In this document: positions 122 through 22,394 of the stretch, piece by piece | How the letters are laid out: each line of letters opens with the position of its first letter | Position numbering within the stretch: the first letter of the stretch is position 1 | DNA from: a virus | Taxonomy: Duplodnaviria; Heunggongvirae; Uroviricota; Caudoviricetes | DNA length: 23,946 nt | Direction: 5' to 3' (one strand) | Virus record (IMG/VR): IMGVR_UViG_2617270941_000003 | Coordinates: 1-23,946 of that record | Made by a program: the position numbers and the translations under genes | Notes under the pieces: model-generated | Told to the model about the DNA's origin: nothing | Database searches by the model: none | The model's input: the letters and a program-made list of their open reading frames with translations, nothing else

Positions 122-701
122 AAACTTCAGGTATTACAGGCCACTCAATATCAGGTGCAGTTGATGTATCAACACGGTTCAGCAACACCCGATACTTTTT
201 CCAGGCTTCCAGCAATGAGGTTTCTTCCTCCGTTGCGATTTCCAGATCTACAGCATCCTGAAGTGGCGCAATATGCTCACTGGCTACCTGCATCAGGTTG
301 TTTTTTGTTTCTTCCGCCTCCCGGATCCGGAACAGTTTTTCTGCTTCTGCATCTTTCACCCAGGCTGTGCCGTTCCACTTCTGAAACTCCCCTTCCGGGG
401 ATAACCAGGTGACATTTTCCGGTAATAAGCCGAGTTCAGAAATAAATAACGCGTCGCCGGAAGCCACGTCATAAACCGTTTTACCCCGATGGTCTTCAAC
501 AAGATGCCACGATGCCTCATCACTGTTGAAAACAGCCACGAAGCCTGCCGGAATATCTGGCGGTGCAATATCGGTACTGTTTGCTGGCAGACCTGTATGA
601 GGCGGAATATATGCGTCACCTTCACCAATAAATTCATTAGTTCCGGCCAGCAGATTATAAATTTTTATGGTCCGTGGTTGTTCACTCATTCTGAATGCCA
701 T
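120..701 (-). CDS. tfa: Tail fibre assembly protein (Tfa family chaperone)
   Basis: 193-aa ORF whose translation ([24 protein letters not shown]...) matches the TfaR/TfaQ/TfaE family as I recall it. Its ATG overlaps the upstream tail-fibre stop by one base (TAATG). Confidence 0.85.
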
Positions 702-6620: not shown

Positions 6621-6907
6621 AAATAACCTTCCTTTCTCCAGATTTCTTGTGTGCGAAAAACACCTTCTGCATGCATCAGGCGTAATTCTTCTTTGGTGTA
6701 ATCGCTGGTTTTTACCCGCCCGTCGATTAAATCGTGGCATGAGCTACAGGCAATCGCTGCCTGCATATCGTGTGGTTTTGTCGCTGTTCCGCACGTCCCC
6801 GCCAGCCTGTAATGCGCCAGCACAGAGGTTTCGGGATTGTGATTGCAGTAGCCAGGGATTCTGATCTGGCACATCTGGCCTTTAGCCGCTTTACGTAAAT
6901 TCACCAT
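6617..6907 (-). CDS. YbcO-like prophage protein (DUF1364 family, Cys-rich putative metal-binding nuclease)
   Basis: 96 aa (MVNLRKAAKGQMCQIRIPGYCNHNPETSVLAHYRLAGTCGTATKP...IACSSCHDLIDGR), closely resembling DLP12 YbcO as recalled. Confidence 0.7.
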   Translation of the reverse strand: MVNLRKAAKGQMCQIRIPGYCNHNPETSVLAHYRLAGTCGTATKPHDMQAAIACSSCHDLIDGRVKTSDYTKEELRLMHAEGVFRTQEIWRKEGYL

Positions 6908-7506
6908 TACGCAAACTCCAGTAGTTGTGCGGCCACATTTTCAACTTCCTCCTGAGAGGAGAATTTACGGAACAGAATCCAGTTCCACAGCACATTCAGA
7001 ACAGATTTATAAACCTGCTGAAACTCGGTTTCGTCCATATTCGCAAACGCGATGGATTTCGCCCTGCGCCCACGGCTACCGTCCGGATAAATATGCTCGG
7101 TGTAAAATCCGGCCTGAATGGTTACCCACTCGCGGAAAGCCTCAAACGACTTTAGCAATGCCGTATCCCGAGTTCTGCGTGTCGCAACTGTATTTAGATA
7201 TTGCTCTGCGGCATCACTCAGGGCTGGTGTGTGTTCCCGACCAACTGATTCGCACAAGTAATCCACGAAACCAGACAGCAGTTCTCGTTCGCGAGGTGTG
7301 ATCGCCCCACCGACCGGAGTCCAGTAATCGAATCCCAGTTGCAGGAGTTTGAAAAAACGCTTGTGGAATGCGTAGTTACGCACACGCTTAAAGTCTGCGT
7401 GTATCCACTCACCTATTTTGATTTGATGCAGAAAATCGCAACTCTCCGGCGTCGCCGGGAGAAGTAAACCAGAAGAGGTTTGTTTGACCAGTTGTATATG
7501 CGCCAT
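6907..7506 (-). CDS. nin-region phage protein, possibly DUF1367 family
   Basis: 199-aa ORF directly upstream of, and coupled to, the YbcO-like gene, an arrangement common in lambdoid nin regions. Family assignment is from memory and is tentative. Confidence 0.5.
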   Translation of the reverse strand: MAHIQLVKQTSSGLLLPATPESCDFLHQIKIGEWIHADFKRVRNYAFHKRFFKLLQLGFDYWTPVGGAITPRERELLSGFVDYLCESVGREHTPALSDAAEQYLNTVATRRTRDTALLKSFEAFREWVTIQAGFYTEHIYPDGSRGRRAKSIAFANMDETEFQQVYKSVLNVLWNWILFRKFSSQEEVENVAAQLLEFA

Positions 7507-7786
7507 TTCTCAATCTCTCGATGGCGCAGCGCAGCAGATGCCAGTTGTTCAGGCTGACGAATAAAGTATAAATAAACTGGCTATGGTGTAAAGCCCCACA
7601 TAGCATGAACAAACACTACATATCAAATAGCTGGTACAAGGATAGAAATACGACATTTATTATTAAAAACGATTAGATAAATTACATTTTAATGTTATGC
7701 AAAAGTTCTTTTTTATCATAACATTTCAATAAAAGCATTACAGATGCAATCATCCCGTCATCATCAATTATTTAAGGTGGTTAAAC

Positions 7787-7873
7787 ATGGAAAATAACAA
7801 GTTCGCACATCTCGCTCCTTTTTTATCCGTAATCCTTTTCGCTTGTTGTTTTATATGGGCATTATTTTTATAA
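7787..7873 (+). CDS. Candidate small hydrophobic protein (28 aa): MENNKFAHLAPFLSVILFACCFIWALFL
   Basis: ATG at 7787 with AAGGTGG 6 nt upstream, a single predicted TM helix and a Cys-Cys pair. Lies in an otherwise ORF-free AT-rich stretch. Confidence 0.4.
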   Translation: MENNKFAHLAPFLSVILFACCFIWALFL

Positions 7874-7947
7874 AGTAGCCGCATGATAAGTTGCTGGAAT
7901 CATATTTCCCACTCAAGTCATTAACATTTGATAAGATATATCTAAAA

Positions 7948-8006
7948 GGACACCTTTACATTATTTATGTGTATATAATTTATTTATATACACAGTAAAG
8001 GTATCC
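7948..8006. repeat. Nested imperfect palindrome in AT-rich non-coding DNA
   Basis: Outer arms GGACACCTTTAC (7948-7959) and GTAAAGGTATCC (7995-8006), 11 of 12 complementary. Inner arms TGTGTATATA (7968-7977) and TATATACACA (7985-7994), a perfect 10-bp inverted repeat with a 7-bp spacer. Confidence 0.5.
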
Positions 8007-8264
8007 TGGGAAAATATTTATCGTTAAAAAATACATCATAAATAATTAAGCTGAAATTTCAGAACACAACTAATACACACAATAAGGTTCAGTAACAATA
8101 ATCTATGTGGACTACATCGAGATTTTTTGATTAAACTTTAATAACTTATTCCTAACACACAGAATGCATAAACTAAAAGTAAAACAAATAGTTATACGAA
8201 AAACAACCATATTTATTATATCTTCTCCTCTAATCAACATATCAATTATGTGTTTCATAACAGC

Positions 8265-8312
8265 TTGACATAACCCTCAAAAACACGCATTTATAATGCA
8301 TGTTTTTGAGGG
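8265..8312 (+). promoter_or_regulatory. Putative promoter with an overlapping 17-bp inverted-repeat operator upstream of the YeaR-like gene
   Basis: Consensus TTGACA (8265-8270) and TATAAT (8292-8297), but with a long 21-bp spacer. Inverted repeat CCCTCAAAAACACGCAT (8274-8290) / ATGCATGTTTTTGAGGG (8296-8312), one mismatch, centred on the -10 element. Confidence 0.45.
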
Positions 8313-8319
8313 GGTGGTT

Positions 8320-8658
8320 ATGACACACAAGAGAATTCCTAAAGATTGGGTAATCAAACGCTCAACTCCGTTCTTCACAAAAGAGAACGTACCTTCAGCG
8401 TTATTAACACATCATAATACAGCAGCAGGTGTTTTTGGGCAGTTGTGCGTAATGGAAGGCACTGTAACATATTATGGTTTTACTGATGAGAATGCTACTG
8501 AACCGGAGATAAAAGTAGTCATTAATGCTGGCGCTTTTGCAACAAGCCCACCACAATACTGGCACCGTGTTGAACTAAGCGATGATGCTCAGTTTAATAT
8601 TAACTTTTGGGTCGCTCCAGACTTCTCGGGCGAAAAAGTCTATAGCACCAAAAAATAG
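8320..8658 (+). CDS. YeaR-like protein (DUF1971, the domain also found at the TehB N-terminus)
   Basis: 112 aa from the ATG at 8320 (GAGGGGG Shine-Dalgarno). Motifs RSTPFF, CVMEGTVTYYGFTDE, EPEIKVVINAGAFATSPPQYWHRVE and FNINFWVAPD parallel E. coli YeaR as I recall it. Confidence 0.65.
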   Translation: MTHKRIPKDWVIKRSTPFFTKENVPSALLTHHNTAAGVFGQLCVMEGTVTYYGFTDENATEPEIKVVINAGAFATSPPQYWHRVELSDDAQFNINFWVAPDFSGEKVYSTKK

Positions 8659-9420: not shown

Positions 9421-11746
<2,326 letters not shown>

Positions 11747-12047
11747 TTTAATTACCTTATATATCCAAACTCTTAATTTTCTCTTTTTTACCATAGGATT
11801 AATCCAAAATAAAGACCTTGTTGACTAAACCCTCATGTACAAAATGCACACTTACTCAAAAGGATCTGGAGGCAATCTCGACCTCCATGATTTAGTTCCT
11901 AGGGATAAGCAGAAATCTAGCACTGGATTAAAATTTAAAAATAATAATCAATAGGTTATAATGGTTTTTATTCGCATCCATGGGATCTGCTGCTGCCCGC
12001 ATGATGTTGGATGCGACGGCGCTGGCACGACCTCACCCGGTGAAACG

Positions 12048-12492
12048 ATGAAACGCGAAAGGGTTGTTCTTCGGGAAGGTGCAGTTGGACTTTCAATCGA
12101 TGACGTTGCAAAAGAGGCTGGCGTCAGTAAGGCAACGGTAATGTACGATCATAAGTCAAAGCAAGATTTGCTCAGCGATCTCATCAGTCGCCTTATGCCA
12201 GTAGAGGAGGAACGTGTTCAGCAAGCGATAGCGGAAAGTAATAATACCCCACATCCCGCACTCTATGGGCGAATTATTTCAGCCAGTAATGCTCTCAGTC
12301 ATACTGAGAGCAGTAGTGCTGGCGGTCAGCGAATCGTTAACTAACGATACGAATATCAGGGACACCATGCGTTCCTGCACAAACAAAGATTTGGATGAGA
12401 TAAAAAGAGGACCAAAACCAGACGTTGCCGTCCTGGTATATTTGGCGTTATCTGGTATCTACTGCCAAGAATTTTTTGATTTTTACAAATGA
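12048..12492 (+). pseudogene. TetR-family transcriptional regulator, apparently frameshifted, divergent from the three-gene operon
   Basis: The first ORF (frame of 11961..12344) carries a TetR-type helix-turn-helix (LSIDDVAKEAGVSKATVMYDHKSKQDLLSDLI) from an internal ATG at 12048. A second overlapping ORF (12265..12492) in a different frame could be the remaining C-terminal domain. Confidence 0.4.
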
Positions 12493-12765
12493 TCTCCTGG
12501 CGAGCGAGATAAAATTATCGAAGGCATTCGCTGTTTGTATGAATCATACCCTTACAAGTCTGAATAAATAATGTCTCCGGGAATGACATTTCATGTGCGA
12601 CTAATTCGCGATATTCCTATACGTAAAGGTCCGCTTTTGGCACAAAGTGGACAACCACGCTAGCTCTACCCTGTGCCACAAAATGTCAATTTGCATCTGA
12701 ACTAATGCACTTTAATCTCGTCACTTCAATAAATACCGAACATCCCCCTGATAAAACGACAATAT

Positions 12766-22018: not shown

Positions 22019-22213
22019 ATGCGGTATGAAAAAGTCAAACCATGTCTATTTTGTGGTTGTCCATCAGTAACGGTGAACGCCATTTCAGGATATTACCGAG
22101 CGAAGTGTAACGGATGCGAATCCCGAACCGGTTATGGTGGAAGTGAAAAAGAAGCACTCGAAAGATGGAATAAACGAACCACTGGAAATAATAATGGAGG
22201 TGTTCATGTATAA
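22019..22213 (+). CDS. ralR: Lar/RalR (restriction alleviation protein and type I toxin DNase)
   Basis: 64 aa from MRYEKVKPCLFCGCPSVTVNAISGYYRAKCNGCESRTGYGGSEKEALERWNKRTTGNNNGGVHV, near-identical to Rac Lar as recalled. Confidence 0.8.
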   Translation: MRYEKVKPCLFCGCPSVTVNAISGYYRAKCNGCESRTGYGGSEKEALERWNKRTTGNNNGGVHV

Positions 22214-22394
22214 AATTACCGCCACTATTGAAAAGGAAGGTGGCACTCCTACTAACTGGACAAGATATTCAAAATCTAAACTAACGAAATCAGAATGCGA
22301 AAAAATGCTCTCAGGTAAAAAAGAAGCAGGCGTTTCCAGAGAGCAGAAAGTAAAACTGATAAATTTTAATTGCGAGAAACTTCAGTCCTCGTGA
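22206..22394 (+). CDS. ydaC: YdaC-like small protein
   Basis: 62 aa from MYKITATIEKEGGTPTNWTRYSK..., with GGAGGTG Shine-Dalgarno. Its start overlaps the lar stop (ATGTATAA). An upstream in-frame ATG at 22194 is also possible. Confidence 0.6.
   Translation: MYKITATIEKEGGTPTNWTRYSKSKLTKSECEKMLSGKKEAGVSREQKVKLINFNCEKLQSS

What the first reader, a model, noticed from the sequence alone, without database searches (positions are those of the whole stretch)
7787..7873. 28-codon hydrophobic ORF with a near-ideal Shine-Dalgarno in an ORF-free AT-rich region
AAGGTGG lies 6 nt before the ATG. The product is a single predicted TM helix with a Cys-Cys pair (MENNKFAHLAPFLSVILFACCFIWALFL). Peptides of this size and shape include type I toxins and small membrane regulators, and it falls below standard gene-calling cutoffs. 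The AT-rich non-coding DNA on either side could encode a regulatory or antisense RNA.
Basis: seen in the sequence. Interest (0 to 1): 0.5.

Follow-up and report, generated by a model that had tools for sequence, protein, structure and literature searches.

The report
Unannotated 28-residue prophage membrane peptide gene
The 28-codon ORF is very probably a real gene that no pipeline has called: it encodes a one-helix membrane peptide, sits in Rac/Qin-type prophages of about a fifth of E. coli genomes, evolves like a protein, and has an untested function.

Summary
ATG 7787 to TAA 7873 encodes MENNKFAHLAPFLSVILFACCFIWALFL, AAGGTGG lies 6 nt upstream, and the surrounding ~800 bp is 32% GC.

It is more than chance. 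A ~215-nt unit (A/T-rich block, leader, Shine-Dalgarno, ORF) occurs in 1176 of 5426 complete E. coli genomes, and in Shigella flexneri and E. ruysiae. It forms three lineages only 73-76% identical in DNA. All 129 loci found through the upstream block alone keep exactly 28 codons. Substitutions fall 7/13/26 by codon position, synonymous changes are in excess (p = 1e-5), and dN/dS is 0.06-0.37.

No pipeline calls it. It matches no Pfam, NCBIfam, PHROG, PADLOC or Rfam family, and E. coli K-12 lacks it.

The unit always lies at the edge of a variable cargo hotspot. It faces away from the nin-region gene (DUF1367 here). In most other loci it converges on an intact hokD-like toxin gene.

Best reading: a self-contained promoter-plus-ORF unit (a phage "moron") making a tail-anchored inner-membrane peptide. 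Whether that peptide modulates another membrane protein or acts as a type I toxin is unresolved. I found no convincing antitoxin RNA or unusual mRNA structure. Only Cys21 is invariant, so the Cys-Cys pair is not a conserved feature.

The parts
7659..7702 (+). Conserved A/T-rich block, the 5' boundary of the mobile unit. Proposed to be an UP-element-like region plus a weak -35 (TATGCA, 7696-7701).
   Evidence: It is the slowest-evolving part of the unit: 0.32 parsimony events per site, against 1.35 in the leader. Homology in the divergent E. coli class and in L102/L142 begins here. It occurs once in the window, so it is not a repeated operator.
7719..7724 (+). Candidate -10 hexamer TAACAT. It is TAATAT in most other alleles and TAGCAT in L102. 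It lies 17 nt after TATGCA. The inferred transcription start is near 7731, giving a leader of about 56 nt.
   Evidence: All 37 distinct leader variants keep TA[AG][TC]AT exactly 17 nt after TATG[CAT]A and 60-67 nt before the ATG. The 17-nt spacer varies in sequence but not in length. My own position-weight scan picked this pair. This is inference; no transcript data exist.
7691..7725 (.). Inverted repeat AATGTTATG ... CATAACATT with a 15-17-nt centre. It is either an RNA hairpin or simply the -35/-10 flanks of the promoter.
   Evidence: the repeat finder pair I3. It keeps 8-10 pairs in all lineages, with a constant spacing of 15 nt between the 11-nt arms compared. RNAalifold predicts it on the plus strand. 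Covariation is too sparse to decide.
7774..7780 (+). Shine-Dalgarno AAGGTGG, 6 nt before the ATG.
   Evidence: Among the 37 distinct leader variants, 26 have AAGGTGA, 2 AAGGTGG, 6 AAAGTGA, and 1 each AAAGCGA, AAGGTAA and AAGGTAG. The site is strong in most lineages and weakened in one.
7787..7873 (+). 28-codon gene (stop included) encoding MENNKFAHLAPFLSVILFACCFIWALFL: a polar N-terminus (residues 1-9) followed by a 19-residue hydrophobic helix that runs to the C-terminus.
   Evidence: Intact and exactly 28 codons in 129 of 129 loci anchored on the upstream block. Events by codon position 7/13/26, 22 synonymous against 24 nonsynonymous, p = 1.3e-5. dN/dS 0.06-0.37. Kyte-Doolittle mean for residues 10-28 is 2.3-2.7 in every allele.
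7947..8007 (.). Long imperfect inverted repeat downstream of the ORF, specific to this lineage. It may be a minus-strand terminator-like hairpin.
   Evidence: the repeat finder pairs I1 and I6. In the other two lineages a different hairpin with a minus-strand T-run lies just after the stop: the hok terminator AAACCCGCCGAAGCGGGTT and ATCCACT...AGTGGAT. Function not tested.

Best explanation
The ORF is a real, translated but unannotated gene. It is the payload of a ~215-nt self-contained unit (window 7659-7873) that lambdoid Rac/Qin-type prophages of Escherichia and Shigella carry at one edge of their cargo hotspot, between the replication genes and the nin/Q region.

**Shown**
- The unit and its exact 28-codon frame are conserved in three diverged lineages and in different genomic contexts.
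- The frame is under purifying selection at the amino-acid level.

**Inferred**
- Transcription starts from a sigma-70 promoter made of the conserved A/T block (UP-like plus -35 TATGCA), a 17-nt spacer and a -10 TAAYAT. This would give a leader of about 56 nt.
- A strong Shine-Dalgarno drives translation.
- The product inserts into the inner membrane as a tail-anchored helix. The polar N-terminus (M-E-N-N-K..H) would face the cytoplasm and the C-terminus would sit at the periplasmic surface.
- The gene points against the phage early-rightward (nin) transcription. It would therefore be expressed in the lysogen and opposed by antisense read-through during lytic growth.

**Most likely role, not shown**
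A small membrane modulator that binds a host or phage membrane protein, for example in superinfection exclusion or envelope physiology, rather than a dedicated toxin.
For: **Presence and boundaries**
- 1176 of 5426 complete E. coli genomes carry it, and 1169 of them cover at least 80% of the query.
- In the 73-76%-identity class, homology spans exactly query positions 8-225, which is from the block to the stop codon.
- The genome-collection scan found it only in Shigella flexneri and E. ruysiae representatives.

**ORF integrity without ORF-based ascertainment**
- All 129 evaluable loci found through the upstream block alone have a 28-codon ORF.

**Selection**
- dN/dS against the window allele is 0.06-0.37. 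The most divergent allele (L102) has 10 synonymous and 5 nonsynonymous differences.
- On a neighbour-joining tree of 42 distinct units there are 46 events, 7/13/26 by codon position. Synonymous changes are 22 of 46, against 19% synonymous sites (p = 1.3e-5).
- Third positions change at about the leader's rate. First and second positions change at about the rate of the conserved block.
- Replacements are conservative (V/I, A/V, L/F, L/V), and the hydrophobic helix is kept in all alleles.
- No other frame fits the wobble pattern.

**Autonomy**
- The same unit sits beside DUF1367-type or rem/ydfU-type nin genes with at least three unrelated downstream cargos.
- In L102/L142 it lies in a different context altogether.

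**Promoter anatomy**
- The -35-like and -10-like hexamers and the 17-nt spacer length are kept in all 37 leader variants, while the spacer sequence varies.

**Chance**
- The SD + ORF + TM-like combination appears in 0.1% of shuffles.
Against: - There is no direct evidence of transcription or translation.
- All carriers are closely related bacteria, so the total divergence sampled is small: 46 inferred events in 87 nt.
- The promoter assignment is weak by position-weight score (about 4-6 bits), and AT-rich DNA is full of such matches.
- One lineage has a weakened Shine-Dalgarno (AAAGTGA or AAAGCGA).
- Rare disrupted alleles exist. One is a deletion of the ATG through about codon 20 in strain ZH177. 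Two are frameshifted alleles picked up as 36- and 58-aa proteins.
- The 'modulator rather than toxin' part rests mainly on the absence of toxin-antitoxin hallmarks, not on positive evidence.
- The conserved-face trend on the helix is not significant (p = 0.16).
Confidence: 0.6

Rival explanations
1. It is the toxin of a new type I toxin-antitoxin module. The hydrophobic peptide would depolarise the inner membrane when made in quantity. A cis-antisense RNA, started from a promoter embedded in the translation-initiation region, would pair with the leader and keep the toxin silent.
For: - Size, hydrophobicity to the C-terminus and prophage location resemble IbsC and ShoB (my own knowledge, not tested here).
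- A minus-strand promoter-like site is kept in all lineages. Its -35 TTTCCA overlaps ATGGAAA. Its -10 is TATGAT, CATAAT or AATAAT, 15-16 nt further on, just upstream of the SD.
- The leader it would cover is the most variable part of the unit, as expected if each allele specifies its own cognate pairing.
- The same hotspot edge commonly carries another type I toxin, hokD-like.
Against: - No match to any Pfam, NCBIfam, PHROG or PADLOC model of known toxins.
- No Rfam antitoxin RNA.
- The mRNA folds no better than shuffles (z = -0.46), and no anti-SD element is conserved between lineages.
- In this window, no minus-strand intrinsic terminator lies between the putative antisense start and the DUF1367 gene, so no discrete sRNA is defined.
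- The promoter-like score is ordinary for AT-rich DNA.
- The -35 is forced by the Met-Glu codons, so its conservation is not independent evidence.
Confidence: 0.2
2. The ORF is incidental. What is conserved would be a DNA or RNA element, such as the divergent promoter region of the nin operon, a recombination boundary of the cargo hotspot, or a non-coding RNA. The open frame would persist only because the sequences are young.
For: - The upstream block is more conserved than the ORF.
- All carriers are Escherichia or Shigella.
- Two other frames across the 87 nt are also open in most alleles, 39 of 42 and 37 of 42.
- A strong minus-strand promoter-like site for the DUF1367 gene lies nearby (7592-7565, 10 of 12 matches).
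Against: - The 7/13/26 codon-position pattern and the synonymous excess (p = 1.3e-5) are specific to this frame.
- There are no indels in the ORF across lineages whose leaders differ by several indels.
- Start, stop and length are identical in 129 of 129 loci.
- Replacements keep hydrophobicity.
- The unit keeps the ORF even where the nin-operon neighbour is absent (L102/L142).
Confidence: 0.12
3. It is the signal peptide of a lipoprotein. It would be either a truncated N-terminal remnant of a longer gene, or a tiny lipopeptide processed at a lipobox (ILFA|C).
For: - Weak sub-threshold hits to lipoprotein signal regions: NCBIfam Lp6.6 (E = 0.03, 14 bits against a cutoff of 35) and a PHROG Rz-like spanin (E = 0.24).
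- The window allele (I-L-F-A-C20) and the A-G-C21 allele fit the lipobox consensus, as I recall the PROSITE rule (my own knowledge).
Against: - The commonest alleles (LFVLCC, LFVFCC, LFVCCF) have L, F, V or C at position -1 and do not fit a lipobox.
- The mature product would be only 8-9 hydrophobic residues.
- A search of 5.8 billion protein clusters with the doubled peptide found no longer homologue, only three aberrant alleles of this same ORF.
- The stop codon is at the same place in all lineages.
Confidence: 0.03

Closest known systems
IbsC / ShoB-type type I toxins of E. coli (19-26 aa, hydrophobic to the C-terminus)
   Same: Very small size, a single hydrophobic helix, a gene below calling thresholds, and a location in horizontally acquired or variable DNA (my own knowledge of these families).
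   Different: - No sequence or profile match.
- No defined antisense RNA gene.
- No structured, translationally inert mRNA.
- An apparently exposed strong SD.
- Single copy rather than tandem repeats.
- Toxicity untested.
Small single-pass inner-membrane modulators of enterobacteria (KdpF 29 aa, MgtS 31 aa, PmrR 29 aa, AcrZ 49 aa)
   Same: Length and one-helix architecture, a strong own SD, and purifying selection with conservative helix substitutions. This is the class into which most validated E. coli small membrane proteins fall (my own knowledge; reviewed in PMC12648545, which I found but did not read).
   Different: - Those are core-genome genes with known partners and known inducing signals.
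- This one is prophage-borne, restricted to Escherichia and Shigella, absent from K-12, and has no known partner.
Phage morons: autonomous promoter-gene(-terminator) units expressed from the prophage, for example lambda bor/lom and the HK97 gp15 superinfection-exclusion membrane protein
   Same: - A compact unit with its own promoter-like region.
- Oriented against the flanking phage operon.
- Found in otherwise different phage backbones and contexts, at a known type of insertion hotspot.
   Different: - Much smaller than described morons.
- It behaves as a constant edge of the hotspot rather than as one of the exchangeable cargos.
- No plus-strand terminator is recognisable.
- Expression in the lysogen is not shown.
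Hok/Gef family (hokD/relF of prophage Qin)
   Same: A membrane-active small protein encoded at the same hotspot edge. In 68 of about 127 related loci, an intact mok/hokD-like gene converges on this ORF, and its terminator lies about 20 nt past the ORF's stop codon.
   Different: - Unrelated in sequence. Hok is 51 aa with a periplasmic Cys-containing tail.
- This window and the S8-peptidase lineage have the ORF without hok, and K-12 Qin has hokD without the ORF. The two are neighbours, not one system.

Membership tests
Type I toxin-antitoxin system | A small hydrophobic peptide whose overexpression is toxic (membrane damage). | not testable with these tools
   The peptide is 28 aa with a 19-residue hydrophobic helix. 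Toxicity needs an expression experiment.
Type I toxin-antitoxin system | An antisense or divergent small RNA antitoxin encoded at the locus, with its own promoter and terminator. | tested here: inconclusive
   A promoter-like minus-strand site overlaps the translation-initiation region in all lineages. No minus-strand intrinsic terminator was found between 7560 and 7760, and there is no Rfam match.
Type I toxin-antitoxin system | A toxin mRNA with a long, stable, SD-sequestering structure. | tested here: not met
   Folding 7690-7900 gives -34.8 kcal/mol against a shuffle mean of -33.0 (z = -0.46). The alifold consensus is weak at -13 kcal/mol. No anti-SD element is conserved between lineages.
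Known E. coli toxin and small-protein families (Hok, Ldr, Ibs, ShoB, TisB, DinQ, ZorO and others in Pfam/NCBIfam) | A significant profile match. | tested here: not met
   Pfam gave 0 hits at E up to 10. NCBIfam gave only Lp6.6 at 14 bits against a cutoff of 35. PHROGs gave E of 0.11 or more. PADLOC gave none.
Bacterial lipoprotein (signal peptidase II substrate) | A conserved lipobox [LVI][ASTVI][GAS]C. | tested here: not met
   Only the minor alleles ILFAC, FAGC and FVSC fit. The commonest alleles LFVLCC, LFVFCC and LFVCCF do not.
Phage moron | An autonomous unit found in different phage backbones and contexts, with boundaries that coincide with the gene and its own control region. | tested here: met
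   Homology is limited to the span from block to stop codon between lineages. There are two kinds of nin neighbour, at least three kinds of downstream cargo, and an unrelated context in L102/L142.
Phage moron | Its own promoter, active in the lysogen, and usually its own terminator. | tested here: inconclusive
   Conserved -35-like and -10-like hexamers sit at a fixed 17-nt spacing but score weakly. No plus-strand intrinsic terminator was found. Expression state cannot be tested here.
Protein-coding gene under purifying selection | An excess of synonymous and third-position change, frame and length conserved. | tested here: met

The most novel reading that the evidence does not exclude
The unit is a new, minimal type I toxin-antitoxin or abortive-infection module. 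A 28-residue pore-forming peptide would have its antisense regulator start inside its own ribosome-binding region. The module would be stationed at the fixed edge of the prophage defence-cargo hotspot. There, lytic read-through from an infecting or induced phage, or its loss, would switch the peptide on or off, stabilising the hotspot or aborting infection.
Probability: 0.15. Interest if true: 0.65.

Novelty: new member of a known kind. Interest (0 to 1): 0.45.

Why it matters
About one E. coli genome in five carries this gene, yet it appears in no annotation, no protein database entry in its normal form, and no paper I could find. K-12, where nearly all small-protein discovery was done, lacks it.

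It is a clean example of a conserved prophage small membrane protein that length cut-offs hide. It marks the constant border of a cargo hotspot that in this window holds a SIR2 / Ham1 / adenosine-deaminase cluster and elsewhere holds hok and other defence-like genes.

If it modulates a host membrane protein or excludes other phages, it adds a new player to lysogenic conversion. If it is a toxin, it is a new type I family. Either way it is cheap to test.

Tried and rejected
**Searches that found nothing**
A doubled peptide worked, but found only three aberrant alleles of the same ORF.
- Exact look-up of 9 alleles in the 15-billion-protein collection found none.
- A full-text search for five peptide substrings found no paper.
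- Rfam scans at gathering threshold and at E up to 10 gave only eukaryotic miRNA/snoRNA noise in this region.
- A search for a repeated operator using the conserved block found it to be unique in the window.

**Analyses that did not reach significance**
- mRNA folding and alifold gave no significant structure.
- The 7691-7725 hairpin shows changes compatible with G-U pairing but too little covariation to claim an RNA structure. I now think it is more simply the -35/-10 flanks of a promoter.
- The helical conservation moment was not significant (p = 0.16).

**Readings rejected**
- Lipoprotein or truncated signal peptide: rejected on allele comparison and on the absence of longer homologues.
- Leader peptide for the downstream gene: rejected because the downstream DNA differs completely between lineages.
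- Part of the hok locus: rejected because each occurs without the other.

**K-12 and literature**
- K-12 Rac, Qin and DLP12 were checked for the unit and lack it.
- A CFT073 Ribo-seq preprint (10.64898/2026.09.28.754932) turned up but could not be opened.

**Technical failures**
- One script failed on a syntax error.
- One script printed far too much because of a negative slice.

Full report

Yes. One search shows ATG at 7787-7789 and TAA at 7871-7873. AAGGTGG lies at 7774-7780 with a 6-nt spacer. The product is MENNKFAHLAPFLSVILFACCFIWALFL.

The ORF sits in an 813-bp gap of 32% GC. The gap lies between a DUF1367 gene (6907-7506, minus strand) and a DUF1971/TehB-like gene (8320-8658, plus strand). 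The gap is 'ORF-free' only for long ORFs: 17 mechanical ORFs of 20 aa or more overlap it.

On its own the ORF is already unusual. An SD-preceded ATG ORF of 20-60 aa appears in 4.3% of 2000 dinucleotide shuffles of the gap. One that also has a 19-residue hydrophobic stretch appears in 0.1%.

**2. Where is this?**

The window is a Rac-type lambdoid prophage of E. coli.
- RefSeq annotation of a 99.9%-identical genome gives lysis genes, then DUF1133 (Q-like), DUF1364 and DUF1367. After the gap come TehB-family, SIR2, an NTP pyrophosphatase, an amidohydrolase and a TetR gene.
- The window also holds RalA (Rfam, 22212-22390). It has IstB/DnaC-like, DUF1627 and DUF977 genes matching the replication module.
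- In K-12 Rac the homologous genes ydaV and ydaW are adjacent.

So the gap and its neighbours are cargo inserted between the replication module and the nin/Q module. The ORF points away from the DUF1367 gene, against the direction of phage early-rightward transcription.

**3. Conservation**

*Phage records.* tblastn against 50,697 phage records found four induced E. coli prophages with 68-89% identical peptides, unannotated in each.

*ORF-based scan.* A codon-degenerate pattern over codons 1-14 hit 119 or more IMG/VR contigs. All had a 28-codon ORF. That pattern biases the N-terminal half, so I re-anchored on the conserved upstream block only.

*Block-anchored scan.* All 129 evaluable loci have a 28-codon ORF 85-92 nt downstream. 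This includes 11 loci with alleles the first pattern had missed.

*Complete genomes.* blastn found the unit in 1176 of 5426 complete E. coli genomes, and 1169 cover at least 80% of the query. In the 73-76%-identity class, the alignment runs exactly from the start of the block to the stop codon. No listed hit has an annotated feature.

*Other species.* One genome per species across 185,579 species gave only Shigella flexneri and Escherichia ruysiae.

*Third lineage.* L102 and L142 (metagenome scan) are the most divergent. They lie in a different context, near integrase and tail-fibre remnants, and share only the stretch from block to stop codon.

*Broken alleles.* They exist but are rare. One is a deletion of the ATG through about codon 20. 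Two are frameshifts, and one is an N-terminal extension. The last three are the only forms present among 5.8 billion protein clusters, because only these forms are long enough to have been called as genes. The normal 28-aa sequences are absent from the 15-billion-protein collection.

**4. Is it coding?**

- Pairwise dN/dS against the window allele is 0.06-0.37. L102 differs by 10 synonymous and 5 nonsynonymous changes.
- On a neighbour-joining tree of 42 distinct units, parsimony gives 46 events in the ORF, distributed 7/13/26 by codon position.
- Synonymous changes number 22 and nonsynonymous 24, where 19% synonymous is expected (binomial p = 1.3e-5).
- Per-site rates are 0.32 in the upstream block, 1.35 in the leader (with indels) and 0.53 in the ORF (no indels).
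- Replacements are conservative within the helix (V/I, A/V, L/F, L/V, I/V). Mean hydropathy of residues 10-28 stays at 2.3-2.7.
- Invariant residues are M1, E2, N3, N4, H8, P11, L13, S14, I16, L17, F18, C21, W24, A25, F27 and L28.
- The 'Cys-Cys pair' is not conserved as such. Only C21 is invariant.
- Two other frames are open in most alleles, but their wobble positions do not match the substitution pattern.

I conclude that the amino-acid sequence is under selection.

**5. Anatomy of the unit**

*The block.* The 44-nt A/T block (7659-7702) is the most conserved part and forms the 5' boundary of homology in all three lineages.

*Promoter-like elements.* Seventeen nucleotides after TATG[CAT]A (7696-7701) lies TA[AG][TC]AT: TAACAT at 7719-7724 here, and TAATAT in most alleles. 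The 17-nt spacer varies in sequence but never in length across 37 leader variants. The -10-like hexamer is 60-67 nt from the ATG.

*My reading.* I read this as an UP-like A/T tract plus a weak -35, a spacer and a -10, with a start near 7731. This is inference. The position-weight score is modest, and the tool's consensus scan did not list it.

*Inverted repeat.* The repeat at 7691-7725 may be an RNA hairpin or merely these promoter flanks. Covariation is too thin to tell.

*Leader and Shine-Dalgarno.* The leader is variable. The SD is strong in most alleles and weakened in one lineage.

*Downstream.* I found no plus-strand intrinsic terminator. Each lineage has a different hairpin just downstream, and each looks like a terminator for minus-strand transcripts.

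**6. Toxin or not?**

Evidence against a type I toxin:
- Pfam, NCBIfam, PHROGs and PADLOC give nothing at or near threshold.
- Rfam gives nothing relevant.
- The mRNA does not fold better than shuffles (z = -0.46).

One lead favours it. A minus-strand promoter-like site has its -35 (TTTCCA) over the start codon and a -10 just upstream of the SD, and it is present in all lineages. However, its -35 is dictated by the Met-Glu codons. Its score is ordinary for AT-rich DNA. In this window nothing would terminate such a transcript before the DUF1367 gene.

I therefore rank 'small membrane modulator expressed from the prophage' above 'type I toxin', but neither is tested.

The lipoprotein-signal reading was suggested by weak hits. 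It fails because the commonest alleles lack a lipobox and no longer homologue exists.

A leader-peptide role fails because the downstream DNA is not conserved.

**7. Neighbourhood**

The unit is the constant edge of a variable region. In this window the cargo is DUF1971, then a SIR2 (ThsA-like), Ham1 and adenosine-deaminase cluster.

Elsewhere the cargo is an S8 peptidase with an AAA protein, or other gene sets of unidentified function, in one locus interrupted by what looks like a transposase gene.

Most often it is an intact mok/hokD-like gene converging on the ORF. This holds in 68 of about 127 loci. The hok terminator lies about 20 nt beyond the ORF's stop codon.

K-12 Qin has hokD without the unit, and this window has the unit without hok. 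They are therefore separate elements.

**8. Verdict**

This is a real feature, very probably a translated gene for a 28-residue tail-anchored membrane peptide. It is a new sequence family within the known class of small membrane proteins and phage morons. It is unannotated and absent from K-12, and its function is unknown.

Confidence that it is a genuine coding gene is about 0.8. Confidence in the full best explanation is 0.6.

Noticed in passing
L140 2640-2860; L141 (K-12 Qin) 7030-7275; most B-type loci, e.g. L004, L008, L009: In about half of the related loci, an intact mok/hokD-like type I toxin gene converges on the small ORF. Its 3' terminator hairpin (AAACCCGCCGAAGCGGGTT) lies about 20 nt after the ORF's stop codon. 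A read-through transcript of the small ORF would be antisense to the hok mRNA 3' end, which controls hok activation.
   Followed up: partly
window 9421-11794 (minus strand): A three-gene cluster: a SIR2-like protein (PADLOC ThsA SIR2, E = 9e-32), a Ham1/ITPase-like NTP pyrophosphatase, and an adenosine deaminase (PADLOC CARF_ADA deaminase part, E = 3e-36). It looks like defence cargo, and PADLOC does not call it as a known complete system.
   Followed up: partly
window 8274-8312: An 18-nt inverted repeat, 94% complementary, with a 3-nt centre (CCCTCAAAAACACGCATT / AATGCATGTTTTTGAGGG). It lies immediately upstream of the DUF1971 start codon and overlaps a TATAAT and part of the GAGGGGG Shine-Dalgarno. 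It could be an operator or a translational hairpin for that gene.
   Followed up: no
window 7565-7592 (minus strand): A strong sigma-70-like site, TTTACA-16-TATACT (10 of 12 matches), lies upstream of the DUF1367 gene. It is conserved in loci with that neighbour. It would give the nin/Q-like operon its own promoter, about 100 bp from the small ORF's control region and facing away from it.
   Followed up: no
window 160-358 (minus) and 22212-22390 (minus): Rfam matches above gathering score: IS009 RNA (229 bits), and the RalA antitoxin sRNA of the RalR/RalA type I system (225 bits). The latter confirms the Rac-type identity of the prophage.
   Followed up: no
window 11961-12494 (plus strand): The TetR-family gene, which is a single 447-nt CDS in the near-identical genome L001, appears here as two overlapping ORFs (11961-12344 and 12265-12492). 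This may be a frameshift or a different start.
   Followed up: no
L017 2491-2721 and other B-type loci: In B-type alleles, a +2-frame ORF starts at the GTG inside the Shine-Dalgarno and runs through the small ORF into the hok 3' region (76 aa in L017). It is not conserved in the window lineage and does not fit the substitution pattern. It is probably spurious, but a gene caller could pick it up.
   Followed up: partly
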